52,601 nucleotides of DNA from the NCBI GenBank assembly GCA_026686805.1, contig GCA_026686805.1_3949.1; one strand, written 5' to 3'. The notes beneath the pieces are model-generated. The model was given only the letters and a program-made list of their open reading frames with translations, was not told the origin of the DNA and did not search any database. This stretch comes from a phage. Shown here in pieces: positions 1,229-43,711 of this stretch. Position 1 is the stretch's first letter, and every line of letters begins with the position of its first letter. A program made the translations under genes and the position numbers.

Positions 1229-1266
1229 TCGACGCAGCGGGGCTAAATAGCCCCAGATACCTTTAC

Positions 1267-1317
1267 AGCCCCTTTCTCATATGGATTCGATAGAATCTAT
1301 CTCATAGGGGCTTTTTT
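1267..1317 (+). terminator. putative intrinsic terminator after rightward early genes
   Basis: stem agcccct(1267-1273)/aggggct(1306-1312) followed by T6; the large loop contains a palindromic 20-mer; a shorter hairpin ggggctaaatagcccc lies just upstream. Confidence 0.35.
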
Positions 1318-1739
1318 ACGTCTATGTAATAGCCCCTATACAATCCTTTCCCTTCCCTTTCCAGAATCTATCCCACTGATTCGATAGAATCTATCTCGTA
1401 CCTTAAAAAGCAATAACTCTATAGGTTATTCTATAGCCCCTTATCAAATCAACTTAAATAAAGCCAATAACCCCAGAAAGGGGATTGCCCATTAAAACGC
1501 TCTATAAAGCTCTATAACAGCCTTATCAACCTAACTTAAGCAATCATATTAACCCACTCTAAAAAGCCCTTTATAGAGCTTCCCAGAGCCTTAAAAGAAT
1601 CTTATAAGGGTGAAAGCTTATAGGCTGGCTAGTATCTTGTGAATAACTAAACAATCCCCTTGATAGTCACTAAAAAGCATGTTATAGGGGCTATAAAGTT
1701 ACTTCAAAGTAACGTAAAAAAGGCTATAAAGTTACGTAA

Positions 1740-2720
1740 ATGCTAGCCCCCTTAACATTTTCTTAACAATTTCTTAACAATCCCTACATAGTTATGCTTG
1801 TTAGAGACTTGTTAGCCCCTTGTTAAATCTCTGTTAAGACCACGTAAAAGCCTTGTAAGAGTCTTTGGCATAGCCTTAAAAGCTCCTGTAAAGCCCTATA
1901 AAGAGCTATCCATACAGTTGAGGGGTAAATACTAGGAAGAGACTTAAAAGAGCTTATAAGGGGCTATAGAGAGCTTTTAAGAGGCATGTTTAGAGAATCA
2001 CTAAGAGGGAAAGGGAACGATAAGAAAGAGATAGTGACCATGTTAATAGTTTGTTAAAAAGATTAAACACTTGTTAGAAACTTGTTAATTATCTTTACAA
2101 AATAACTCTTTAAAATTAACTTGTTAGCTCTTGTTAGTCATCTGTTAAGACTCTGTAAAACCTATGTATCAACTGTTAAGAAACTGTTACACCCTTGTTA
2201 GTTCTGTTAAGAATCTATTAAGACCTCTGAAGAGATGTTAAGAGGATGTGAGAACTGTTAAGAGATTGTTAAGGATATTTTAAAATTTTGCAAAGTACTT
2301 GTAAGGGAGCTGTTAAGGGCTACCAAGCAGATATACATCTTCTACAGATATTTTTCAGTTCCTTCAAAGACCCTAAAAAATGACTTGATAGTCCTATTTT
2401 ATAAAAATTTTAAGATTCTGAATAATTACCTATACAGTCTTTTAAAAATACAGGTAGAAACAGGCTTATAAGATACCTTGTTAGTACCGTGTTAGACCTT
2501 GTGAGATAAGGTCTGTGAAGATATTCCTGTTAAGTTTGTTAAAACAGTCTATATAGAGGCTTAGTAATACCTAGTGAACACCTATAGAGGGTAACATAGC
2601 TAACATAGAGATTAAGAGGTGTATAGGAGCTTCTAAGAAGGTGTAGAGAGATGGTTAAGGTGATTGTATAGGTTGTTAAGAAGGCTTGTTAGAAGAGTGT
2701 TTAGATGGCTATTTAGAAGG
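1740..2720. repeat. array of short degenerate repeats (YTTGTTAR / CTGTTAAG / TTGTTAAG) in ~10-12 bp phase, non-coding
   Basis: seen directly, e.g. copies starting 1797,1808,1819,1831 and 2120,2130,2142,2173,2184,2195,2205,2215; no ORF of 60 aa or more in the region. Confidence 0.6.
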
Positions 2721-2880
2721 GCTATACAGAGGGCTATTAAGACCACTAGATAGATACTAAGATACTATATAGTACTATATAACTATATAGAGAGTAAGAT
2801 TAAGAAGGTTGTTAAGAAGGATAGATATTTTATTCACATATGATGGTGACCCAGAGGTTGGGACAACCGATAAAATTTTA

Positions 2881-2911
2881 TAAAAATTAAAAAGCCCCCG
2901 ATTAAGGAGGC
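2881..2911 (-). terminator. putative intrinsic terminator ending the leftward gene block
   Basis: imperfect hairpin gccccc/ggaggc followed on the minus strand by a T-rich run (A-run 2881-2893 on plus). Confidence 0.3.
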
Positions 2912-2923
2912 TCTTAAGATATT

Positions 2924-3472
2924 TTAAATCAGTGTTTCCAGAACTGTTTTTAGGGATGACTTAGTTGTCTGATAAAAATGAGTGAATCCATTGTTGTTAT
3001 CGAATATCTGCATCATGATATCATCTCCCTTGATTGGGTACACTCGGATATCATAGTGAAAACCATTAAAGACACAAGAACCACTACAGAATGAACTAAA
3101 ATCGTCTACTGAGATGTACTCTTCATGTCCTGTGATTTTTATACAAATACCTTTACTCGGTCTCTTAGGGTTGATATCTTCCATCACAGACATACTCTGT
3201 CCACCAAGAGATACCATAGTGACCACTTTACGGTTCTTCTGTCTAAAGTACATCTTAACTTTCTGCAAAGTGTCTTCATAGAACGGATAAGACCTTTCTA
3301 CAAAGATTCCTTCAAGTGGCTCTTTACCATTTTCAACTTCTCTGTTATGCCGTACTGCAAAGATAATTTGTTCGAACCAGTCAAGATTTTCTTCGGAGAG
3401 TGCTTCCCGAATATCACCCCAATCAAGGACTAGGTAGTTACCTTCAACATCTTTTAAGTTATCTTTTTCCAT
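2924..3472 (-). CDS. hypothetical protein
   Basis: track ORF 2924..3517 begins with TTG and overlaps the upstream gene; internal ATG at 3472 has a GGTGTGA RBS-like sequence and removes the overlap, so the start is uncertain. Confidence 0.45.
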   Translation of the reverse strand: MEKDNLKDVEGNYLVLDWGDIREALSEENLDWFEQIIFAVRHNREVENGKEPLEGIFVERSYPFYEDTLQKVKMYFRQKNRKVVTMVSLGGQSMSVMEDINPKRPSKGICIKITGHEEYISVDDFSSFCSGSCVFNGFHYDIRVYPIKGDDIMMQIFDNNNGFTHFYQTTKSSLKTVLETLI

Positions 3473-3485
3473 AGCTATCACACCA

Positions 3486-3950
3486 TTATCGTAAAACTTG
3501 GTAAGCTGGAACTGCAAACTTGTTGCCGTTGTTCTTAATGAGGTCTTCTTCTGTTACTAAGAATGTAATCCCACACAAGTGTGTGTATTGGCTATCATAC
3601 TCAAATATTTTAAGTAAGTATTTACCATTGTGATAAACAGATTCTACTACACCTTTTGCAACAATCTTTCCAGTCTTGAAATCTTTAAGAGGGTATACAT
3701 TACCAACTTTAGGGACTGTTTTCATCTCAGGTTCTTTTAGTTTCTCACTAACTTCTACATCACCTAGTAAGTGAGAACTCTCAAACGCTACATATTGCAT
3801 ATAAGCTTCTGAGCATTCCCAGATAAAACAATGTACAAGAATCTTAGCAGCATGTCTTGAGCAATTCAACTTATCACAAATTTCTTTGTACATTTCATCT
3901 TTAGTTGAGTTGTCAAGCATTGCTTTTCGAACTGTTTCTTTAATTTTCAT
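3486..3950 (-). CDS. hypothetical protein (154 aa)
   Basis: ORF from track, tightly packed in leftward operon. Confidence 0.5.
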   Translation of the reverse strand: MKIKETVRKAMLDNSTKDEMYKEICDKLNCSRHAAKILVHCFIWECSEAYMQYVAFESSHLLGDVEVSEKLKEPEMKTVPKVGNVYPLKDFKTGKIVAKGVVESVYHNGKYLLKIFEYDSQYTHLCGITFLVTEEDLIKNNGNKFAVPAYQVLR

Positions 3951-4362
3951 AAGCTCTCCGAATAACTCTATTAAACATCTCTAAAGTCAGCTTTCCAGAT
4001 TCTAAATGTGGCATAACAAGCTTTAAAGCTTTTTCAACATCATGCACAATATCAATTATACCTTCTTCATAGGCTTCTACGAGGATATCTTTTACACTGA
4101 TATAGCCTTCATTGATAATGATTTGCATATCAAAATCTTCTGATTGCTTGTTTAACTTACCTCTCCAATACCCATCAGCATTAAAAGATATCACTTCACA
4201 CTCTTTAAAATCCATATCATCTGCATGGAATGGAGTAATTATTGTGCATTGGATTGGGTACTCTACACCAGTGGTGTCAACATCAAAGACCTTCACAGAA
4301 GTAAGTGGTTTCTTTGTTTTAGAGCAGTAAACTGTCAATCTTTTACCAATAAGCTCTTTCAT
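3940..4362 (-). CDS. hypothetical protein (140 aa)
   Basis: ORF from track. Confidence 0.5.
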   Translation of the reverse strand: MKELIGKRLTVYCSKTKKPLTSVKVFDVDTTGVEYPIQCTIITPFHADDMDFKECEVISFNADGYWRGKLNKQSEDFDMQIIINEGYISVKDILVEAYEEGIIDIVHDVEKALKLVMPHLESGKLTLEMFNRVIRRAYEN

Positions 4363-4414
4363 TTCGCTACCTTCTAAGTTTCTACAAAGGGGCTATCAAG
4401 TAACCCCTAAGTTA

Positions 4415-36651: not shown

Positions 36652-37506
36652 ATGTTTGAAAAGATTGATAGTGTTTATTATAAAACACTTGATGAAAGAA
36701 CTGTAACACAGTTTAAAGATAAGTTTATCTATACAAGCATCTTGAAAGCAATCACTGATGAGCTACAAACCTTAGAAGATGTTTGCTGGCAAATGCACAC
36801 AGAGAGGAATATTAGGACGTCAGTAGGCCAACAACTTGATAATATTGGCTCACTGATTAAAGTTCCTAGACCTTTAGGTGCTGATGATGAAACATATAGA
36901 GCTATGCTTTATATCCAAATCTTCCTAAGACGTTCTGACACTACTCCAACATTCTTGCAAAAAGCAATTATGACATTGTATGGTGCAACTTTCTCTCAGA
37001 TTTTTGAGCATATTACCCCTAAGACTGGTGGTATCGTTATCCGTATTAACACCAGAAGAAGCGTTCTTGATGCTGCATATACACTGTCAAAGATTTCTGC
37101 AACAACCACTGGTTCCGCTGTTATCTTAAGAGATGTTACTTTAAATGGGACTGCTTGGACACCTGTAGAGGTTGCTGATTCATCACTTGCTATTGTTGAT
37201 GATAAAGAGAACTGGTTTGTAACTGATGCTAACAGAGGTCTGGTCACAAATAACACTGGCGGCTCTCTGGAGTCCAACCTAGTAGGGAGTCTTGCAGATG
37301 CTGGTGTTATTGATGGTTACTTTAAGGTTGACAGAACAGCAAACTCGCAGAGCGATGATTATATGACTGTAGATAGGTCTAATAATAGCGGCTATTTCAT
37401 TGCTGGTAAAGAAGCTATTGCAGGTAGTGCATATGGAATCATGGCTGAGGTTGCACAAATTGTCAAAGGCAGAAAAGATAAATCACAACAAGAAGGAAAT
37501 TCTTAA
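36652..37506 (+). CDS. baseplate/tail protein (gpI-like, putative)
   Basis: 284-aa ORF following J-like gene. Confidence 0.4.
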
Positions 37507-37808
37507 TGGCAGTTTTAAATTGGTCTACAAATGAAGTAGATACTGATGGTAATCAGTTAAAAGTTTTACCACCACCGGAAGTTCAAGAGACAGGTCTTTT
37601 AAAGGGTGAGCCTATGGGTAGACAGTGGTTCAACTATATTATCAACTACCTGCTGAATAAAGTAAATGGCACTGTTGGTGAAGTTCGTTCATATGCAACT
37701 GAGCAACCAGATTTAGTGGCTAATGGCTGGAACCTCATTAAGTCTGAGACAGGGACTGCATCAACAAGTACAAGAAACCTTTACACATATGAATATGTAG
37801 GAGCTTAA
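37506..37808 (+). CDS. hypothetical tail protein (100 aa)
   Basis: ORF from track. Confidence 0.4.
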
Positions 37809-37810
37809 TA

Positions 37811-38986
37811 ATGGCAGTAGGTGAAATTCAAATTAGTGCCTTGCCACAAGCGGCCTTACCAATCGATTTGAGTGATATCTTCCACCTTAAGCAAGGTGTT
37901 GAGGATAAAAGATGTACGCTTGAGCAGTTGTTAGCACCTCACACATCTTTGAGGAATAACCCTCATGGTGTAACTAAATCACAAGTAGGTCTTGATAATG
38001 TTATTAACTCTCTTCAATTAGTTGCAGCTAATAACTTGTCAGACATTGTAAATGTTGCTGAGGCAAGAGCAAATCTACAAATTATGTCGTCAGAGGAAGT
38101 GAATAACTTAATTCAGCAACATATTGACGATAAAAGCAACCCACACAACACAACGAAAGCACAGGTTGGTTTAAGTAATGTTCAGAACTGGACAACATCT
38201 AATCTGTACAATGAAGATGCTGATAAGTATGCTACAGCGAGAGCAGTGAATAATCTATACAAAGCTATCCAAGCATCATATCCAGTGGGTACTATTCATC
38301 TATCTGTTAACTCTGCTAACCCATCCACTTACTTGCTTTGTGGAGGTACTTGGGAGTTAGTTTCTAAAGGTAGAGCACTAGTTGGTTATGATACAGATTC
38401 TAGACCTGTTGGTTCAACGTTTGGTTCTCAGACTGTAGCATTAACAAATAATAATTTACCAGCGCATACTCACTCTATCTATCTAACAGGTGGTGGTCAT
38501 ACACACTCTGCAAGTGTATCTATCTCTAGTTTTGATTATGGTTCAAAAAGTACATCAACTTTTGATTACGGTACAAAAACGACTAATAGTGCTGGTGCTC
38601 ACACTCACACGTTTAGTGGCACAACAAGTAATGCTGGTAACCACAACCATAGAGTCCCTATGAGGGGTAATGATAGGGGTGGCACAAACGCTATTACTGC
38701 ATCTGCTGATGCTGGTGTTGGTAATGCTATGTATACTGATTTAGCTGGTGCTCACACCCATAGCTTCTCAGGTACAACTGCATCATCTGGTGCTCATAGC
38801 CATACTGTCGCAATTGGTGCTCACAGCCACACTGTTAATATTGGTTCGCACAGTCATACAGGCACTGTTACTGTTTCTAGCTCTGAGCACACACACTCAG
38901 GGACATCTGGTTCTGTTGGTGGTGGTCAAGCTTTCAGTGTTGAGCAGCCATCTTTTGTAGTGTATGTGTGGCAGAGAACAGCTTAA
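37811..38986 (+). CDS. tail fiber protein with multiple HxH repeats
   Basis: C-terminal half contains repeated HTHS/HSHT/HNHR motifs and ends ...QAFSVEQPSFVVYVWQRTA, paralogous to the C-terminus of the next gene. Confidence 0.65.
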   Translation: MAVGEIQISALPQAALPIDLSDIFHLKQGVEDKRCTLEQLLAPHTSLRNNPHGVTKSQVGLDNVINSLQLVAANNLSDIVNVAEARANLQIMSSEEVNNLIQQHIDDKSNPHNTTKAQVGLSNVQNWTTSNLYNEDADKYATARAVNNLYKAIQASYPVGTIHLSVNSANPSTYLLCGGTWELVSKGRALVGYDTDSRPVGSTFGSQTVALTNNNLPAHTHSIYLTGGGHTHSASVSISSFDYGSKSTSTFDYGTKTTNSAGAHTHTFSGTTSNAGNHNHRVPMRGNDRGGTNAITASADAGVGNAMYTDLAGAHTHSFSGTTASSGAHSHTVAIGAHSHTVNIGSHSHTGTVTVSSSEHTHSGTSGSVGGGQAFSVEQPSFVVYVWQRTA

Positions 38987-38996
38987 TTTCTTTACA

Positions 38997-39018
38997 GGGG
39001 CTATAAAGCCCCTTTTAA
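38997..39018 (+). terminator. hairpin between the two tail fiber genes
   Basis: aggggc-tataaa-gcccct followed by ttttaag (short U tract). Confidence 0.3.
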
Positions 39019-39032
39019 GAGGAAAATTCATA

Positions 39033-41582
39033 ATGGCAGATTACAAATTGAGTCAATTAAACTCAATCGACACAATTCGTTCAGAAGACCTATTGCACAT
39101 CAGAGTTAAGAAAAGACCTGAAATGTTGGGTGATGAAGACCGCAGAATGACCTATCAAGACTTCTTAGCTTCCTTCAAACTAGAAAGGTTTGTTCAGATT
39201 GCTGGAAGTAATATGACTGGGGATTTAGGTATTGTCAAGTTACTTTATGGTGGTAAGGCAGTATTTGACCCTACAGGTTCTTCTGAAATTACTATTGGGG
39301 ATGTTTTAAAGACTTTTAAACTTAATGCAAATGGTCTTAAACTAACTATTGCAGATGCTTCAAGGTCAGCAACTGTTTATCATACTCTGAATAAGCCAAG
39401 TCCTAATGAGCTTGGTATGAGAACTAATGAAGAGAATGACGCAAGATATGCAAGACTTGCTATCACAAACACATTCTCTGGAACTCAAAATATTCAAGGT
39501 GATGCTAACTTACTTCGCCTTAGAAACCAAAATGCAAATAATGCACAATACATCGAAGGTGTAAACCTAGATGGTTCGGCTAGATGGTGGGTTGGTATTG
39601 GTAGTAATGGCTCTGATGAAGTAAAGCTGTACAATAACAAATACAACTCAGCCTTGACTGTTGCAAGTAATGTCTCTGTTAATAAGTCTTTAGCAATCAC
39701 TGGTCAAGTTCAACCTTCAGATTTCTCTAACTTAGATGCTAGATACTTCACTCAGACAGTTGCTAATCAGAGATTTGCACAGTTAGCTGCTAATAATAAT
39801 TTCACGGGCACTAACACGTTTAGTAGAAATCTAACCATCATTAGTGACAGTGCTGCTTTAAGGTTGAAAAATGCAACAGCTAGCTCACTATTCATTCAGG
39901 GTGTTGACTCTCAGAACACTAACAGGTGGTATGTAGGGAACGGGGATAACACAGCCTCTGTGCTGCTACACAACTATGTACACGGTTCAAATATCAGGCT
40001 TGATAATGGCTATATCTCAGTCAACCAGAACTTCAGAATCACTGGTCAAATTCAACCTTCGGATTGGACTAATATTGACTCTAGATATATTCCGGCAGCA
40101 ACATTAAGTACGATTGCAAGGACTAATGCACAAAATACTTTTAATGGTGTACAGAAAGTTGTTACGGATAATGAAGCCCTAATTGTGAAAAACTCTACTC
40201 AGAACAGACCATTGTATATCCGTGGTGTGGACACTGCTAATGTGTCAAGGTGGTGGGTAGGTGTTGGTGGGGCAGATACTAATGATGTAACCCTAAATAA
40301 CAGTTATTCTGGAACCCAATTGGTTCTCGGGAATACAACATCATACATTAACAAAACATTGACTATTGCTGGACAAGTTCAACCTTCAGATTTCTCTAAC
40401 TTAGATGCTAGATACTTTACGCAAAGTGCTAGTGATAGTAGATACCTAAGAATCAGAAGCACTAGCTTCAATGTGGGAAACACTGATAAGTGGGCTAAAA
40501 TTGCCACTGTTGTGATGCCACAATCAGCATCCACTGCTGTTATTGAGGTATTTGGTGGGTCAGGTTTTAATATTAATACACCAAACCAAGCAGGTAAATG
40601 TGAAATTGTTCTGCGAACTTCAAATAACAATCCAAAGGGCTTAAATGTTGTTGCTTGGAGAACATCAGAGAACACCATTATCAGGGATATTGGTTATGTG
40701 AATACTTCTGGAGACACCTATGATATTTACTATCTTGCTGGTACGTATCAAAACAGCACAACGACAAGGGTTCAGTCTTCTAGTAATGCAAGTGTACAGT
40801 TGTTTGAAGTCCCACAGACATTTGATGATGCTCCACAAGGTATTGTGAAGGGTACAATTGCAAAATACTACACAAGTTTGCAAAAACCAACCCCTTCAGA
40901 TATTGGTGCATACACTAAAGCAGAAACTGACCAGAAGATTGCAGAAGCAATTAGTGACTCTACAGACCTGAATAAAATCTATCCAGTAGGTATTGTGACG
41001 TGGTTTAACAGTAATGTCAACCCTAATACAGCACTTCCTGGGTTAACTTGGACGTACCTGAACAATGGTGTTGGTAGAACTATTAGAATTGCAGCAGCAA
41101 ACGGTTCAGATGTTGCTACAACTGGTGGTTCAGACTCTGTAACGTTGTCTGTTGGTAACTTACCTTCACACACGCACAGCTTCTCTGCTACTACTTCATC
41201 ATTTGACTATGGTACTAAGACTTCTAGCACAACTGGTAACCACAACCACAACAGAGGTACTATGGAGATTACTGGTTCATTTGGTTACTTCAGAAGTGAC
41301 GCTAGTAGCTTCTACACAGCAAGTGGTGCATTCTACCTCGGTAGTCAGGCAGGTTCTAAAGGGTATACTGGTAACAACTTTACTAATGGTATCCCTGTCA
41401 ACTTCAACGCATCAAGAAACTGGTCTGGTGTAACGAATACAACAGGTAACCACAGCCACACTGTTGGTATTGGTGCTCACAGCCACACAGTTAGCGGTAA
41501 CACAGGTGGTACTGGTTCTGGTTCAGCATTTAGTGTTACTAACCAGTTCTATAAGTTAATGGCTTGGGTAAGAACTGCTTAA
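39033..41582 (+). CDS. tail fiber protein with three internal tandem repeats and HxH-rich C-terminus
   Basis: start set at ATG 39033 (AAGAGGAAA RBS) instead of track 38964; three ~100-aa repeats each ending ..ITGQVQPSDFSNLDARY..; C-terminus ...GNHSHTVGIGAHSHTV...SAFSVTNQFYKLMAWVRTA. Confidence 0.7.
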   Translation: MADYKLSQLNSIDTIRSEDLLHIRVKKRPEMLGDEDRRMTYQDFLASFKLERFVQIAGSNMTGDLGIVKLLYGGKAVFDPTGSSEITIGDVLKTFKLNANGLKLTIADASRSATVYHTLNKPSPNELGMRTNEENDARYARLAITNTFSGTQNIQGDANLLRLRNQNANNAQYIEGVNLDGSARWWVGIGSNGSDEVKLYNNKYNSALTVASNVSVNKSLAITGQVQPSDFSNLDARYFTQTVANQRFAQLAANNNFTGTNTFSRNLTIISDSAALRLKNATASSLFIQGVDSQNTNRWYVGNGDNTASVLLHNYVHGSNIRLDNGYISVNQNFRITGQIQPSDWTNIDSRYIPAATLSTIARTNAQNTFNGVQKVVTDNEALIVKNSTQNRPLYIRGVDTANVSRWWVGVGGADTNDVTLNNSYSGTQLVLGNTTSYINKTLTIAGQVQPSDFSNLDARYFTQSASDSRYLRIRSTSFNVGNTDKWAKIATVVMPQSASTAVIEVFGGSGFNINTPNQAGKCEIVLRTSNNNPKGLNVVAWRTSENTIIRDIGYVNTSGDTYDIYYLAGTYQNSTTTRVQSSSNASVQLFEVPQTFDDAPQGIVKGTIAKYYTSLQKPTPSDIGAYTKAETDQKIAEAISDSTDLNKIYPVGIVTWFNSNVNPNTALPGLTWTYLNNGVGRTIRIAAANGSDVATTGGSDSVTLSVGNLPSHTHSFSATTSSFDYGTKTSSTTGNHNHNRGTMEITGSFGYFRSDASSFYTASGAFYLGSQAGSKGYTGNNFTNGIPVNFNASRNWSGVTNTTGNHSHTVGIGAHSHTVSGNTGGTGSGSAFSVTNQFYKLMAWVRTA

Positions 41583-41661
41583 TCCCTTGTTGACTGATTG
41601 TTAAGATGGTGTTAATATTCTTTATGGGTATTCTCACCATCTTGGCTGATGAGGTGATTAA

Positions 41662-41856
41662 ATGCCTACAATCCTAGCAATTCTTCTAAAAAATCTAGGT
41701 AGCTTCTTCTGGAAACTCATTTTATCCCTTCTAAGTGAATACATGATTGAGAAAGTGTTCTTTAAGCTTGCAAGATACCTTGCGAGTAAAACAGACACAC
41801 CTATTGATGATGAGTTCGTAGATAACTTAGAGAAAGCTTTTAAAGGGGAGAAATAA
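41662..41856 (+). CDS. small protein with hydrophobic N-terminus (64 aa)
   Basis: ORF with GAGGTGA RBS. Confidence 0.45.
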   Translation: MPTILAILLKNLGSFFWKLILSLLSEYMIEKVFFKLARYLASKTDTPIDDEFVDNLEKAFKGEK

Positions 41857-42228
41857 ATGAAGTGGCTAGAGGAAGCTTTTAAAAATAATATTGGTGCAAT
41901 TGTAGTTGGTATTTTTAGTGTTATCGGGATGTATACCACTATGCAAGTTTCAAGTGGTAAGCAAGAAGTGTCTGTCACAACAAAGTTACAGCAGCTAGAT
42001 AATTATTCCAAAAGTAACTATTCAGCTATTCGTGATTTACAGTCTGACATGAGACTGATTCAGCTAGGGATGGAGAACCAGAAAGTCCAGTTAGAGAATG
42101 TTAAGGGTGAGAATGCAAAACTTACCAAAACTCTTGATAAATTCTCTGACAGTGTGAACAATCTGGCTCAATCAGTATCAGCCTTGCAAGCTATTACTGA
42201 AAAGAACACAAAGAATACTGAAAAATAA
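41857..42228 (+). CDS. membrane-anchored coiled-coil protein (123 aa)
   Basis: N-terminal TM-like segment IGAIVVGIFSVIGMYTTMQV then heptad-like helical region; GGGGAG RBS. Confidence 0.45.
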   Translation: MKWLEEAFKNNIGAIVVGIFSVIGMYTTMQVSSGKQEVSVTTKLQQLDNYSKSNYSAIRDLQSDMRLIQLGMENQKVQLENVKGENAKLTKTLDKFSDSVNNLAQSVSALQAITEKNTKNTEK

Positions 42229-42234
42229 AATTTA

Positions 42235-42262
42235 AGGCTCCTTTTTACGGGAGCCTTTTTGT
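42235..42262. terminator. bidirectional intrinsic terminator between convergent gene blocks
   Basis: hairpin ggctcc-tttttacg-ggagcc flanked by A-run upstream and tttttgttttt downstream. Confidence 0.6.
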
Positions 42263-42264
42263 TT

Positions 42265-43164
42265 TTACTTGCCTACTGACAGAGGTGCTTCAATCTTTCC
42301 TGCATGTTGGTAGTTGTAAATGCCACCAATAAAATCACTTGCAGTAAGGTGTTTTAGGTCACTTAGTGTGTTAAGTGGTACACCAATCTCAAAAGTAGGT
42401 GCATGGAACTCTTCATTGTTCATCAGTTCATAAACCTGCTTCATATGGTTCTGATAAATCTGGGTATCCCCAAAGACACCTATCAAGTACCGTGGAGTGT
42501 ATCCAGTCATCTTACAAAGAACTTCTAAGATGAAACCATAAGACGCAATGTTAAATGGAAGTCCTAAAAAGGTGTCTACAGAACGCTGATACCATTGCAA
42601 ATCCACTTCACCTTCATTAGTGATATAAATCTGAAACAGAACATGACAAGGTGCTAAAGCCATTGAGTTTGCTGCAATATCTGCTGCATTCCAAGCATTA
42701 ACAAGCATGTAACGGTCTGTGATATCACCCTTCATCTTCGTTACTAAGGTCTCTAGTTGGTCTACAACACAACCATTATGACCTTCAAAGTTTCTCCACT
42801 GAACCCCATAGATTCTCCCACCTGCATCATCTAACCAATCTTGTTCAGAAGAATAATTAGAGCTTAACCAGCGTTTAAAATCATCTGACCAGATAGTCCA
42901 GCGTTCCCCATCATTTTCACCCCAAGTACGGTAACGGAGTTCACCCAGCTTATTCTCACCATTCAGGAACCATAAAGCTTCCCCAATAACTTGCCGTGTA
43001 AACACCTGTTTAGATGTTAAAAGCGGGAAACCAGTTCGCATATCAAAACGAAACTGAGGTGGAGCAAAAGCAGAGATGACATCTCCAGTTCGTGTGGTAC
43101 GCAGTTCACCGACTGATAAAACATGGTTCAGGATATTTTTGTAACTCAAATCAGCTTGTGACAT
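42265..43164 (-). CDS. thyA: thymidylate synthase
   Basis: conserved ThyA motifs: ...LAPCHVLFQ... (active-site Cys) and ...QRSVDTFLGLPFNIASY...; 299 aa. Confidence 0.9.
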   Translation of the reverse strand: MSQADLSYKNILNHVLSVGELRTTRTGDVISAFAPPQFRFDMRTGFPLLTSKQVFTRQVIGEALWFLNGENKLGELRYRTWGENDGERWTIWSDDFKRWLSSNYSSEQDWLDDAGGRIYGVQWRNFEGHNGCVVDQLETLVTKMKGDITDRYMLVNAWNAADIAANSMALAPCHVLFQIYITNEGEVDLQWYQRSVDTFLGLPFNIASYGFILEVLCKMTGYTPRYLIGVFGDTQIYQNHMKQVYELMNNEEFHAPTFEIGVPLNTLSDLKHLTASDFIGGIYNYQHAGKIEAPLSVGK

Positions 43165-43165
43165 A

Positions 43166-43711
43166 TTAAAAGTGTCCTTTTACTTGTGGAACATAAATTT
43201 CAAAGGTTGCTTTACCATCTTCTGAAAGTCTTGACTGAACCTTTGCAAATACACGGTTATCATACAGCTTATCGAAGAAGTTTTCAAAAGGTAAATGCAC
43301 AGTGGCCTCTTCAGTCACTTTATGGAAGACTGTGTGGAACACTACATCAGCATACGGTAAAGCACTGACAAGAATACCTGCACCACCAATTACAAAAACA
43401 TCTTCATCAATAGAGCTATCAAGATACTTCAAAAATGCTCCAAAGGACTCTTTACTGGCCTTAGCATACATTACATCATCTTTGTCAAAATCTATACCTA
43501 AATATGGCACAGAATTTGTTAAGATAAGGTTTTCACGGTCAGGTAAAGGCTTACTACCCAGAGTCTTAAAAGTCTCATTACCCATGACTACTAAATTTCC
43601 TTTAGTGAGTCTCTTAAACTCTTGCATGTCCTGTTTATGTCTAGGCCACGGCATACCAGTTGGAGTACCGAACTCCCCATGTTCACCACTTGCAAAGATT
43701 AATTTAATCAT
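43166..43711 (-). CDS. folA: dihydrofolate reductase
   Basis: DHFR motifs: MIKLIFA..GEFG..GMPW, VVMGNETFKTLGSKPLPDRENLILT, VFVIGGAGI; adjacent to thyA. Confidence 0.85.
   Translation of the reverse strand: MIKLIFASGEHGEFGTPTGMPWPRHKQDMQEFKRLTKGNLVVMGNETFKTLGSKPLPDRENLILTNSVPYLGIDFDKDDVMYAKASKESFGAFLKYLDSSIDEDVFVIGGAGILVSALPYADVVFHTVFHKVTEEATVHLPFENFFDKLYDNRVFAKVQSRLSEDGKATFEIYVPQVKGHF

What the first reader, a model, noticed from the sequence alone, without database searches (positions are those of the whole stretch)
37811..41582. Two tail fiber genes with HxH-repeat-rich tips, shared C-terminal module and an internal triplication
Both proteins end with blocks of HTHS/HSHT/HNHN repeats and a shared tail (...AFSV..Q........W.RTA). 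The second gene has three ~100-aa tandem repeats, including a near-identical ~45-bp DNA repeat at about 39690-39760 and 40360-40430. HxH arrays are known to coordinate iron in T4 gp37-type fiber tips. Duplicated tips and recombinogenic repeats suggest host-range switching by module exchange.
Basis: partly seen in the sequence, partly recalled or inferred. Interest (0 to 1): 0.55.

Follow-up and report, generated by a model that had tools for sequence, protein, structure and literature searches.

The report
Known Felixounavirus short and long tail fibers
These are the short and long tail-fiber genes of a Felix O1-like phage closest to phages isolated on E. coli O157; both end in a T4 gp37-type histidine/metal needle tip, an architecture already published for this genus, and comparison with relatives shows the long fiber is a patchwork of swappable cassettes joined at conserved linkers.

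Summary
ORF 37811-38986 (391 aa) and ORF 39033-41582 (849 aa) are the short (STF) and long (LTF) tail fibers of a Felixounavirus. The locus is ~98% identical to phage wV8, and the proteins are 76% and 60-70% identical to Bas63 gp26 and gp27, whose cryo-EM structure was published in 2025.

Both end in a collar-needle-head tip homologous to T4 gp37 (PDB 2XGF, E = 1.8e-26 and 5.8e-7). They carry 9 and 4 HxH motifs, and those histidines are nearly invariant in 71 and 120 homologs. The "triplication" is three Pfam PF20744 / T7-gp17-like beta-helix domains.

The 44-nt exact repeat encodes the conserved linker QVQPSDFSNLDARY.

My addition concerns mosaicism among 118 LTF homologs. The three repeat cores, a mid beta-sandwich domain and the head behave as discrete alleles that reassort independently at the conserved linkers and His boxes. 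There are 72 haplotypes, and every segment pair passes the four-gamete test.

Variants include a one-repeat deletion and a duplication (R1 = R3). The head block is also 88.7% DNA-identical to part of a T-even-like gp37. Head type tracks the isolation host.

Metal identity and receptor are inferred, not shown. Interest is low to moderate.

The parts
37506..37808 (+). LTF-platform protein (100 aa), the attachment point of the long fiber on the baseplate
   Evidence: 87% identical over 100 aa to Bas63 gp25, which the cryo-EM paper identifies as the T4 gp9-like LTF platform.
37811..38986 (+). Short tail fiber (STF, P1, 391 aa); ortholog of wV8 gp82 and Bas63 gp26
   Evidence: 76% identical over its full length to Bas63 gp26; phrog_2097 tail fiber, E = 5.8e-139; wV8 annotation.
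37811..38215 (+). STF N-terminal baseplate-binding and shaft part (aa 1-135), with two NPHxxTKxQVGLxNV motifs
   Evidence: The N-terminal segments N1 (aa 1-40) and N2 (aa 41-135) are 75-100% identical in the closer relatives (P0001-P0042) and 30-85% in more distant orthologs. Bas63 STF binds wedge-2 domain D2 by its N-terminus.
38216..38455 (+). STF collar domain (aa 136-215)
   Evidence: Pfam Gp10_C PF21939, 67.6 bits against a cut-off of 27; aligns to the collar of T4 gp37 in 2XGF and to T4 gp10.
38456..38659 (+). STF ascending needle strand with 4 HxH motifs (H219/221, H230/232, H264/266, H278/280)
38660..38746 (+). STF head (distal tip, aa 284-312), hypervariable
   Evidence: 0-31% identity in most orthologs while the flanks stay conserved. 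The window's type occurs in 62 phage records, mainly Escherichia and Shigella phages.
38747..38983 (+). STF descending needle strand with 5 HxH motifs (315-362) and the C-terminal tail AFSV...W.RTA
38997..39016 (+). Intergenic hairpin GGGGCT-ATAA-AGCCCC followed by TTTT, then the RBS AAGAGG (39017-39022) of the LTF gene
   Evidence: Read directly from the sequence. Annotated as a rho-independent terminator in wV8. Not called by the consensus scan because the T run has only 4 bases.
39033..41582 (+). Long tail fiber (LTF, P2, 849 aa); ortholog of wV8 gp83 and Bas63 gp27
   Evidence: phrog_4277, 1354 bits. The N-terminal 143 aa are 93.7% identical to Bas63 gp27.
39033..39461 (+). LTF conserved N-terminal part (aa 1-143, baseplate-binding domain)
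   Evidence: A single allele class; minimum 87% pairwise identity among 118 homologs; present in 253 phage records.
39462..39680 (+). Repeat 1 variable core (aa 144-216), a beta-helix domain
   Evidence: PF20744; 11 allele classes; breakpoints.
39681..39788 (+). Linker 1 (aa 217-252), conserved and helical; contains the 44-nt exact repeat 39705-39748
   Evidence: One allele class; helices at 228-231 and 241-249 in the AF2 model; exact repeat.
39789..40040 (+). Repeat 2 variable core (aa 253-336); the cassette in which this phage differs from wV8
   Evidence: Window versus wV8 DNA drops to ~50% identity only in about 39780-40050, with ~83-92% over 40050-40320 and about 95% overall. 13 allele classes. 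Matches T7 gp17 residues 368-442, E = 1.7e-6.
40041..40133 (+). Linker 2 (aa 337-367)
   Evidence: It forms the left junction of the one-unit deletion in P0158.
40134..40370 (+). Repeat 3 variable core (aa 368-446)
   Evidence: 18 allele classes. Core types are exchanged with position 1 but never with position 2.
40371..40472 (+). Linker 3 (aa 447-480); contains the second copy of the 44-nt repeat (40374-40417)
40473..40859 (+). Mid domain (aa 481-609), a beta-sandwich; replaceable cassette
40860..41168 (+). LTF pre-collar helix and collar domain (aa 610-712), conserved
   Evidence: One allele class; aligns with the P1 collar; Gp10_C scores 24.3 bits, just under the cut-off of 27.
41169..41252 (+). 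LTF ascending needle strand with 2 HxH motifs (H713/715, H737/739)
   Evidence: All four His are invariant in 120 of 120 homologs.
41253..41441 (+). LTF head (aa 741-803), the presumed receptor-binding tip; O157/STEC-associated type
   Evidence: 18 allele classes. All 12 phage records with a 100%-identical head come from E. coli O157:H7 hosts. The block 41202-41485 is 88.7% DNA-identical to gp37 of Mosigvirus ZQ3.
41442..41579 (+). LTF descending needle strand with 2 HxH motifs (H807/809, H816/818) and the C-terminal tail AFSV...W.RTA
   Evidence: His conserved in 118 of 120 homologs; the other two proteins are truncated. One allele class.

Best explanation
The region encodes the two receptor-binding fibers of a Felixounavirus (Felix O1 / wV8 group): a short fiber (391 aa) and a long fiber (849 aa).

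By homology, each is a homotrimer anchored to the baseplate by a conserved N-terminus. Each ends in a T4 gp37-type tip. In that tip the chain forms a collar, runs out along a needle, forms a small head that contacts the receptor, and runs back. The needle is therefore six-stranded, and its core is held by stacked metal ions, each bound by an HxH motif from each of the three chains. That predicts 9 metal sites in the short fiber and 4 in the long one.

The long fiber's shaft consists of three T7-gp17/PF20744-type beta-helix domains separated by short conserved helical linkers. These are followed by a tailspike-C-terminus-like beta-sandwich and then the tip.

Across the genus the gene evolves by homologous recombination at conserved segments: the N-terminus, the three linkers, the collar and the His boxes. 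This recombination swaps, deletes or duplicates the variable blocks between them, namely three repeat cores, the mid domain and the head. The result is many combinations.

The head block, and probably others, sets host specificity, with LPS the likely receptor in this genus.

Status of each step. Shown here: homology, histidine conservation, mosaic structure, breakpoints, and the association of head type with isolation host. Inferred: trimer and metal geometry, the identity of the metal, the receptor, and the idea that swaps change host range.
For: Identity of the genes:
- The locus is ~97.8% identical to wV8, where both genes are annotated as tail fibers.
- P1 is 76% identical to Bas63 gp26. 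P2 is 60.6% (aa 1-472) and 70% (aa 610-849) identical to Bas63 gp27. The upstream 100-aa ORF is 87% identical to the gp25 platform.
- Bas63 cryo-EM places these proteins as STF and LTF, each with a collar/HxH-needle/head tip.

The tip:
- P1 146-362 matches 2XGF with E = 1.8e-26, and P2 707-828 with E = 5.8e-7.
- P1 carries Gp10_C at 67.6 bits.
- T4 gp37 has seven Fe sites, and its histidines are essential (PMC6957217).
- The LTF HxH histidines are invariant in 118-120 of 120 homologs, while the head between them falls to 6-20% identity.
- Among STF orthologs, 58 of 72 (P1 included) have 9 HxH motifs, and the His positions are mostly conserved in 66-71 of 71.

The shaft:
- PF20744 hits three times, 265 bits.
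- T7 gp17 matches by sequence (E = 1.7e-6) and by fold (Foldseek E = 2e-5).
- The AF2 model gives pLDDT around 75-89 for the repeat cores and mid domain, with helices in the linkers.

Recombination:
- The segment identity table and residue-level profiles show sharp switches between ~97-100% and ~50% identity exactly at the linkers.
- Allele classes number 11, 13, 18, 4 and 18 for R1, R2, R3, mid and head. The N-terminus, linker 1, collar and descending needle have one class each; linkers 2 and 3 have three and four classes.
- All 10 segment pairs pass the four-gamete test, and 118 proteins give 72 haplotypes.
- The pattern also holds among isolate genomes: wV8-type differs from the window only in R2; HY02 shares the window's R2 and head but not R1, R3 or mid; KEP1 differs in both R1 and R2.
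- P0158 lacks exactly 327 nt (window 40047-40373), with the junction NQNFRITG|QVQPSDFSNLD inside the linkers.
- P0161 has R1 and R3 cores that are 100% identical. Cross-position sharing of core types occurs only between R1 and R3, the positions whose downstream linkers share the 44-nt exact repeat.
- The head block 41202-41485 is 88.7% DNA-identical to gp37 of Mosigvirus ZQ3, and the block is bounded by HxH boxes.

Host association:
- All 12 records with a 100%-identical head come from O157:H7 hosts.
- Only 1 of the 61 records with this head family is a Salmonella phage, and that match is partial.
- By contrast, 71 of the 253 records carrying the conserved LTF N-terminus are Salmonella phages.

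Precedent: recombination at conserved motifs swaps adhesin specificity in T-even fibers (Tetart 1996 and 1998, as cited in PMC3157838).
Against: - No trimer could be modelled. The monomer AF2 model has pLDDT < 50 over the whole tip (aa 613-849), so neither metal-site geometry nor the metal can be assessed. T4 gp12, for instance, uses zinc; that is from my own knowledge.
- P2's collar hit to Gp10_C (24.3 bits) is below Pfam's cut-off of 27.
- No gp38-like chaperone, which T4 gp37 needs for folding, was found in the window (tblastn E >= 2). Folding of these tips may therefore differ from T4. Only 52.6 kb of a ~88-kb genome is visible.
- The host association rests on recorded isolation hosts of related, non-independent phages.
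- Many of the panel proteins come from metagenome or read-archive assemblies, where chimeric joins at conserved linkers are possible. The one-repeat deletion is known from a single contig at 6.7x coverage. Linkers 2 and 3 share only 10 nt of exact identity in the window, so collapse by the assembler is unlikely.
- Nothing here shows that the shaft cassettes affect host range.
Confidence: 0.88

Rival explanations
1. Only the head domains set specificity. The three shaft repeats and the mid domain are inert spacers, and their allelic diversity is neutral: old divergence carried along by recombination, with no effect on host range.
For: In T4 the receptor contacts map to the tip of gp37. The Bas63 authors treat the beta-helix repeats as rod elements and call their variability unexpected. 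Head type alone already tracks the isolation host.
Against: The cores fall into discrete classes at ~40-55% identity inside proteins that are otherwise 93-100% identical, and the classes reassort freely. That pattern is more typical of balanced or diversifying alleles than of drift. The mid domain has a tailspike-C-terminal, lectin-like fold and is exchanged with prophage fibers. None of this is a functional test.
Confidence: 0.4
2. The apparent cassette shuffling is largely an artefact. Metagenome and read-archive assemblies of mixed Felixounavirus populations could join strain variants at the conserved linkers.
For: Most panel proteins come from Logan or ENA assemblies. The linkers are long, conserved stretches where assembly graphs can cross. 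The two-repeat variant is a single contig at 6.7x coverage.
Against: The same discordant patterns occur among cultured, completely sequenced isolates. wV8 and the O157 typing phages differ from the window only in R2. HY02 has the window's R2 and head but different R1, R3 and mid. KEP1 differs in both R1 and R2. Bas63 carries the alternative mid domain. The ZQ3 gp37 head block comes from an isolate genome.
Confidence: 0.07
3. The HxH arrays do not bind iron. They bind another metal such as zinc, or they act only as a conserved structural or recombination motif.
For: Metal identity cannot be read from sequence. T4 gp12, a relative with the same collar fold, binds zinc (my own knowledge). The His boxes coincide with recombination junctions, so DNA-level conservation could partly serve recombination.
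Against: There is direct sequence homology to the gp37 needle, in which seven Fe ions are bound by the equivalent HxH motifs and His-to-Ala changes are lethal. Both His of nearly every motif are invariant at protein level across very divergent heads, as expected for ligands.
Confidence: 0.15
4. The two genes are recent duplicates that give the phage two alternative adhesins for switching between hosts, which is the reader's 'duplicated tips' reading.
For: Both tips share the same domain order and C-terminal tail. Both heads are hypervariable.
Against: The shared module is only 32% identical. The proteins occupy different baseplate sites in Bas63: the STF sits on wedge 2 and the LTF on the gp25 platform. 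Both genes are present in the relatives whose loci were examined here (wV8, GEC_vB_B1, Bas63 and contig L002) and are reported in VpaE1. They look like an old, fixed pair with distinct roles, analogous to long and short fibers in T4.
Confidence: 0.1

Closest known systems
Bas63 (Escherichia phage JohannRWettstein) STF gp26 and LTF gp27, cryo-EM (Sci Adv 2025, PMC12609058)
   Same: Same genus and the same gene order: wedge 2, wedge 1, platform, STF, LTF. P1 is 76% identical to gp26. P2 is 60-70% identical to gp27 outside the mid domain. Both phages have gp37-like collar/HxH-needle/head tips and three PF20744 repeats.
   Different: The window's STF has 9 HxH motifs against 7 in Bas63, and its LTF has 4 against 6. 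The window's LTF carries a 129-aa beta-sandwich mid domain where Bas63 has an unrelated ~86-aa domain. The head types also differ.
wV8 gp82/gp83 and the E. coli O157 typing phages
   Same: About 98% DNA identity across the locus. The LTF head and the STF head are identical.
   Different: The repeat-2 core (about 39780-40050) is only ~50% identical at DNA level, which indicates a cassette replacement.
T4 gp37 receptor-binding tip (PDB 2XGF)
   Same: Collar, ascending HxH strand, head, descending HxH strand; significant sequence homology. Some Felixounavirus LTFs even carry a head nearly identical to that of T4 (P0203).
   Different: The tip sits on much shorter single-protein fibers rather than on the gp34-35-36-37 assembly. 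The number of HxH motifs differs (9 and 4 against 7). The window's LTF head (63 aa) is not the T4 type. No gp38-like chaperone gene was detected in the window.
T7 gp17 C-terminal region (PDB 4A0T) / Pfam PF20744 gp37_trimer
   Same: Each LTF repeat core is homologous to the T7 gp17 domain covering residues 368-442. I know this as the pyramid domain. It is followed, as in T7, by a short helical connector and then a beta-sandwich.
T-even distal tail-fiber locus plasticity (Tetart et al. 1996, 1998; Trojet et al. 2011, PMC3157838)
   Same: Recombination within or next to conserved motifs swaps hypervariable specificity segments. Duplication of small fiber domains is also seen.
   Different: Here the conserved anchors include helical inter-domain linkers in the shaft, and the swapped units are whole beta-helix domains as well as the head. 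There is no separate gp38 adhesin.

Membership tests
T4 gp37-type receptor-binding tip (collar-needle-head, PDB 2XGF) | Significant sequence homology to gp37 residues 785-1026, spanning collar, ascending needle, head position and descending needle | tested here: met
   P1 146-362 aligns to 2XGF 18-227 with E = 1.8e-26. P2 707-828 aligns to 2XGF 101-218 with E = 5.8e-7.
T4 gp37-type receptor-binding tip (collar-needle-head, PDB 2XGF) | Collar domain of the gp10/gp12/gp37 fold (Pfam PF21939 Gp10_C) | tested here: met
   P1 scores 67.6 bits against a cut-off of 27. P2 scores 24.3 bits, just under the cut-off, but its collar aligns with the P1 collar by BLASTP, E = 7e-17.
T4 gp37-type receptor-binding tip (collar-needle-head, PDB 2XGF) | HxH motifs on both the outgoing and returning strands, flanking a variable head, and conserved among homologs | tested here: met
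   P1 has 4 + 5 motifs and P2 has 2 + 2. The LTF His are invariant in 118-120 of 120 homologs. The STF His are mostly conserved in 66-71 of 71.
T4 gp37-type receptor-binding tip (collar-needle-head, PDB 2XGF) | Trimeric six-stranded needle with octahedral metal sites formed by six His; iron as the metal | not testable with these tools
   Only monomer AF2 was available, and the tip scored pLDDT < 50.
T4 gp37-type receptor-binding tip (collar-needle-head, PDB 2XGF) | Dedicated gp38-type folding chaperone encoded next to the fiber gene | tested here: not met
   tblastn with the gp38-like protein of Mosigvirus ZQ3 against the whole window gives E >= 2. The two downstream ORFs belong to PHROG families of unknown function. 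Only 52.6 kb of the ~88-kb genome is visible, and this feature is an accessory, not part of the fold.
Felixounavirus STF/LTF pair (Bas63 gp26/gp27) | Orthology to the cryo-EM-assigned proteins | tested here: met
   P1 is 76% identical to gp26 over the full length. P2 is 60.6% and 70% identical to gp27 over aa 1-472 and 610-849. The platform ORF is 87% identical to gp25.
Felixounavirus STF/LTF pair (Bas63 gp26/gp27) | Gene order: baseplate wedge 2, wedge 1, LTF platform, STF, LTF | tested here: met
   Window ORFs of 489, 284, 100, 391 and 849 aa. The same order is seen in wV8, Bas63 and contig L002.
Felixounavirus STF/LTF pair (Bas63 gp26/gp27) | Physical presence as trimeric fibers on the baseplate of this phage | not testable with these tools
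   Inferred from Bas63 cryo-EM and from the VpaE1 virion proteome, in which the corresponding fiber protein gp75 was among the identified structural proteins.
Pfam PF20744 (gp37_trimer) / T7 gp17 beta-helix domain repeats | Pfam score above the gathering threshold, in multiple copies | tested here: met
   265.1 bits against a cut-off of 21.7, in three stretches. An HMM built from the three units finds exactly three copies in P2 and three in Bas63 gp27.
Pfam PF20744 (gp37_trimer) / T7 gp17 beta-helix domain repeats | Sequence and fold similarity to the solved T7 gp17 371-553 structure | tested here: met
   phmmer E = 1.7e-6 against 4A0T. Foldseek E = 2e-5, although the model's overall pTM is low (0.27).

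The most novel reading that the evidence does not exclude
The long fiber may not be a passive rod carrying a single adhesin. It may be a multi-site, combinatorial host-recognition device. In this reading, the three beta-helix cores and the lectin-like mid beta-sandwich are additional glycan-contacting, or otherwise selected, surfaces. They would be kept as deeply diverged alleles and reassorted independently through conserved helical linkers that act as built-in recombination joints. Host range would then be set by a five-locus 'haplotype' within one gene. The 44-nt identity between linkers 1 and 3 would also permit copy-number change and movement of cassettes between positions.
Probability: 0.2. 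Interest if true: 0.55.

Novelty: already known. Interest (0 to 1): 0.3.

Why it matters
Felix O1-type phages are used for Salmonella diagnostics, O157 phage typing and biocontrol, so it helps to know which fiber segment sets specificity.

The finding as stated adds nothing to what the wV8, VpaE1 and Bas63 papers report. Those papers already describe two fibers with gp37-like HxH tips and variable regions.

The comparative map made here has practical value for engineering. It gives residue-level boundaries of five exchangeable blocks: R1 144-216, R2 253-336, R3 368-446, mid 481-609 and head 741-803. It also names the conserved joints where natural recombinants are viable. Those joints are the obvious places to cut when designing chimeric fibers.

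It also qualifies a statement in the Bas63 paper, which found no variation in repeat number among 18 ICTV species. In a wider sample there is at least one natural one-repeat deletion and one internal duplication.

Tried and rejected
- The mechanical ORF start at 38964 for the long fiber. Rejected in favour of 39033, on the basis of the RBS, the hairpin and the annotations of relatives.
- Self-BLAST of P1 and P2 returned only the identity hit. The repeats were characterised instead with the repeat finder, Pfam, MAFFT and an HMM.
- Single-linkage clustering of whole repeat units at 80% identity chained R1 types together through the conserved linkers. I redid it on the cores alone with average linkage.
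- A sequence search of the mid domain against PDB sequences gave nothing significant; the best hit had E = 0.21. Only the fold comparison identified it.
- The third homolog search, with the mid domain alone, returned just 16 proteins, mostly partial Salmonella prophage fibers. The alignment used for the model was therefore shallow.
- The consensus terminator scan did not call the intergenic hairpin that wV8 annotates as a terminator.
- The primary 2XGF paper (PMC2996694) is not held in the library. The iron and HxH facts are taken from PMC6957217 and PMC12609058 instead.
- Tandem Repeats Finder sees only the short 27-nt GAHSHTV repeat and not the ~330-nt units, which are too diverged for it.

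Full report
**What is there**

The window is part of a Felixounavirus genome. Over 37500-41700 it is ~97.8% identical to Escherichia phage wV8 and to the E. coli O157 typing phages, and 241 phage records match the locus.

ORF 37811-38986 encodes a 391-aa protein (P1). It corresponds to wV8 gene 82, annotated "tail fiber protein ... GP37".

The second gene's mechanical ORF starts at 38964. The real start is ATG 39033 (MADYKL...). That start follows the hairpin GGGGCT-ATAA-AGCCCC-TTTT (38997-39016) and an AAGAGG ribosome-binding site, and it matches the wV8 annotation. It encodes 849 aa (P2), equivalent to wV8 gene 83.

Upstream lie baseplate genes of 489, 284 and 100 aa.

Direct comparison with Bas63, the Felixounavirus whose virion was solved by cryo-EM in 2025, gives these identities:
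- the 100-aa ORF is 87% identical to gp25, the T4 gp9-like platform for the long fiber;
- P1 is 76% identical to gp26, the short tail fiber (STF, 430 A);
- P2 is 60.6% (aa 1-472) and 70% (aa 610-849) identical to gp27, the long tail fiber (LTF, 630 A).

The fiber assignments come from the paper itself.

**Checking the observation**

- HxH motifs. P1 has nine between aa 219 and 362, and 24 of its 391 residues are His. P2 has four, at 713, 737, 807 and 816.
- Shared tail. The two proteins end AFSVEQPSFVVYVWQRTA and AFSVTNQFYKLMAWVRTA.
- Shared module. It is far larger than the tail: P1 136-342 against P2 623-820 is 32% identical, E = 7e-17.
- Three repeats. Three direct copies start at 39679, 40021 and 40348, with periods of 342 and 327 nt. 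The units are 38-43% identical as protein.
- DNA repeat. The "near-identical ~45-bp repeat" is an exact 44-nt match, 39705-39748 = 40374-40417. In 200 codon shuffles the longest repeat averaged 11.5 nt and never exceeded 15.

**What the parts are**

*The tips.* P1 residues 146-362 align to the crystal structure of the T4 gp37 receptor-binding tip (2XGF) with E = 1.8e-26. The alignment runs through the collar, the outgoing HxH strand, the head position and the returning HxH strand. P2 707-828 aligns to the same structure with E = 5.8e-7. P1 carries the Pfam collar domain Gp10_C at 67.6 bits; P2 scores 24.3 bits, just under the cut-off of 27.

In T4, seven iron atoms are coordinated along the needle by these histidines, and replacing the histidines is lethal (PMC6957217). 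The Bas63 paper describes the same collar-needle-head tip with HxH motifs on both of its fibers, seven on the STF and six on the LTF. I confirmed those counts on the sequences. The window's fibers have nine and four, so the predicted number of metal sites differs within the genus.

*The triplication.* It corresponds to three copies of Pfam PF20744 ("gp37 trimerization region"), 265 bits. The second copy matches the T7 gp17 fiber, residues 368-442, with E = 1.7e-6. The AF2 model matches 4A0T by Foldseek with E = 2e-5, and T4 gp34 more weakly. An HMM built from the three units finds exactly three copies, both in P2 and in Bas63 gp27.

In the monomer AF2 model the repeat cores (pLDDT about 80-89) are beta-rich. 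The segments between them contain short helices, consistent with the "triple alpha helix and turn" connectors described for Bas63.

In 120 LTF homologs, all eight tip histidines are conserved in 118-120 sequences; the two exceptions are truncated proteins. Meanwhile the head between them drops to 6-20% identity.

In 71 STF orthologs:
- the His of motifs 1, 2 and 8 are invariant (71 of 71);
- motifs 4, 5 and 7 are conserved in 66-70 of 71;
- motifs 3, 6 and 9 vary, partly through indels.

Of the 72 STF sequences (P1 included), 58 have exactly nine HxH motifs. The test is passed.

**Module exchange**

This is where the tools add something. I aligned the 120 best LTF homologs and scored identity to the window's protein segment by segment. 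The N-terminus, collar and descending needle are 67-100% identical everywhere and mostly above 90%. The three repeat cores, the mid domain and the head take discrete values, about 97-100% or about 50% or lower, and they do so in independent combinations.

Residue-level profiles show sharp switches at the linkers. The variable cores are R1 144-216, R2 253-336 and R3 368-446. The conserved linkers are 217-252, 337-367 and 447-480, with the motif I[TA]GQ[VI]QPSD[FW][ST]N[LI]D[AS]RY.

Clustering the cores at 75% identity gives the following allele classes:

| Segment | Allele classes |
|---|---|
| R1 core | 11 |
| R2 core | 13 |
| R3 core | 18 |
| Mid domain | 4 |
| Head | 18 |
| N-terminus, linker 1, collar, descending needle | 1 each |
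| Linker 2, linker 3 | 3 and 4 |

All ten pairs of variable segments show all four allele combinations, and 118 proteins give 72 five-segment haplotypes.

The pattern is not just an assembly artefact, because it holds among cultured isolates:
- wV8 and the typing phages differ from the window only in the R2 core. DNA identity is ~50% over about 39780-40050, ~83-92% over 40050-40320 and about 95% overall.
- HY02 has the window's R2 and head but different R1, R3 and mid.
- KEP1 differs in both R1 and R2.

**Further variants**

- Mid-domain replacement. Fifteen of the 120 homologs (788-790 aa), and Bas63 itself, have the 129-aa mid domain replaced by an unrelated ~86-aa domain, with both flanks conserved.
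- Mid domain elsewhere. The window-type mid domain also occurs at 43-51% identity in Salmonella prophage tail fibers.
- One-repeat deletion. One LTF (P0158, 740 aa) lies in a normal Felixounavirus baseplate and fiber context on a 23-kb contig. It lacks exactly 327 nt (window 40047-40373), which is one repeat unit. The junction NQNFRITG|QVQPSDFSNLD lies within linkers 2 and 3.
- Internal duplication. One LTF (P0161) has R1 and R3 cores that are 100% identical.
- Movement between positions. Core types are shared across positions only between 1 and 3: all 163 cross-position pairs at >= 80% identity are R1-R3, and none involve R2. These are the two positions followed by the identical linker DNA.
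- Lineage dependence. The exact linker-1/linker-3 repeat is 44 nt in the window, 32 nt in wV8, 47 nt in the deletion variant and only 13 nt in the Salmonella phage GEC_vB_B1.

The Bas63 paper found no variation in repeat number among 18 ICTV species. The wider sample contains at least these exceptions.

**Exchange across phage families**

The window's head block (41202-41485, 284 nt) is 88.7% identical at DNA level to part of gp37 of Mosigvirus vB_EcoM-ZQ3, a Tevenvirinae phage. The shared block runs from TGNHNHNRG to GIGAHSH, so it is bounded by His boxes. Other Felixounavirus LTFs carry a head almost identical to that of T4 gp37 itself (P0203).

This matches the T-even picture of recombination at conserved motifs swapping adhesin specificity (Tetart 1996 and 1998, as cited in PMC3157838).

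**Host association**

The conserved LTF N-terminus is found in 253 phage records, including 119 named Escherichia, 71 Salmonella and 23 Shigella.

The window's head family is found in only 61 records: 36 Escherichia, 20 Shigella and 1 Salmonella, the last a partial match.
- All 12 records with a 100%-identical head were isolated on E. coli O157:H7.
- The 83-86% variants come from phages isolated on STEC hosts (O157, O111, O103) or on hosts recorded only as E. coli.
- The 55-67% variants are mostly Shigella phages, with some Escherichia and Citrobacter phages.

The STF head shows a similar but looser pattern.

This is a correlation among related phages with recorded isolation hosts, not a demonstration. 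The receptor is probably LPS, as reported for this genus, but I did not test that.

**What could not be established**

- No trimer modelling was possible. The monomer model of the tip is unreliable (pLDDT < 50 over aa 613-849), so metal-site geometry and metal identity remain inferences from homology.
- No gp38-like chaperone is encoded in the window. The two small downstream ORFs belong to PHROG families of unknown function; one is annotated "holin" in a relative. How these gp37-like tips fold is open.
- Whether the shaft cassettes or the mid domain influence host range is unknown.

**Comparison with what is known, and verdict**

The two-fiber arrangement, the gp37 homology of both C-termini and the variable middle of the long fiber were reported for VpaE1 in 2015. 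The collar-needle-head tips with HxH motifs, the beta-helix repeats and the variability of tips and repeats were reported for Bas63 in 2025. The proteins themselves are 92-96% identical to database entries.

The finding is therefore correct but already known. The cassette map, the deletion and duplication variants, and the DNA-level head sharing with a T-even-like phage are useful refinements of a familiar theme, phage fiber mosaicism. They are not a new kind of system.

Noticed in passing
window 41662-41856 and 41857-42228 (+): Two small ORFs (64 and 123 aa) lie directly after the long-fiber gene, each with a hydrophobic N-terminal segment. They belong to PHROGs 402 and 4038, both of unknown function. 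The homolog of the 123-aa ORF is annotated 'holin' in phage GEC_vB_B1, and it has a very weak Rz-like spanin hit (E = 0.009). These are lysis or membrane proteins rather than a fiber chaperone.
   Followed up: partly
window 42234-42257 (both strands): A bidirectional terminator-like hairpin (AAGGCTCC...GGAGCCTT, with T runs on both strands) sits where the + strand structural genes meet the - strand thymidylate synthase and DHFR genes (42265-43711). The GC skew changes sign at the same place.
   Followed up: no
window 38997-39016: A hairpin plus TTTT lies between the short- and long-fiber genes. It is annotated as a rho-independent terminator in wV8 but falls below the consensus scan's threshold. 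It might lower long-fiber transcription relative to the short fiber. Bas63 cryo-EM reported partial LTF occupancy.
   Followed up: partly
window 37958-38008 and 38138-38191 (P1 aa 50-66 and 110-127): The motif NPHxxTKxQVGLxNVxN occurs twice in the short-fiber shaft. This part of the protein (around aa 82-152) is hit by many otherwise unrelated PHROG tail-protein families, so it looks like a widespread short fiber motif.
   Followed up: no
GenBank GU169904.1 (Staphylococcus phage SA1), 84219-84647: A 147-kb record named as a Staphylococcus phage contains a Felixounavirus long-fiber N-terminus that is 93.7% identical to the window's. Records named Campylobacter also match the locus. These are probably mixed or contaminated records.
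   Followed up: no
L004 (Mosigvirus vB_EcoM-ZQ3, MW630116.1) 1229-4369; also PQ349265.1 (CJY920): Two ~170-kb phages carry the window-type long-fiber head, at 90% and 71% protein identity. In ZQ3, a Tevenvirinae, the match lies in gp37, which is followed by a 183-aa protein that I took to be gp38-like; the Felixounavirus window has no counterpart to it.
   Followed up: partly
P0203 and P0213 (Felixounavirus LTF homologs): Their head segment (…[35 protein letters not shown]…) is almost identical to the T4 gp37 head that binds OmpC and LPS. This suggests that some Felixounaviruses may use a T4-like receptor.
   Followed up: no
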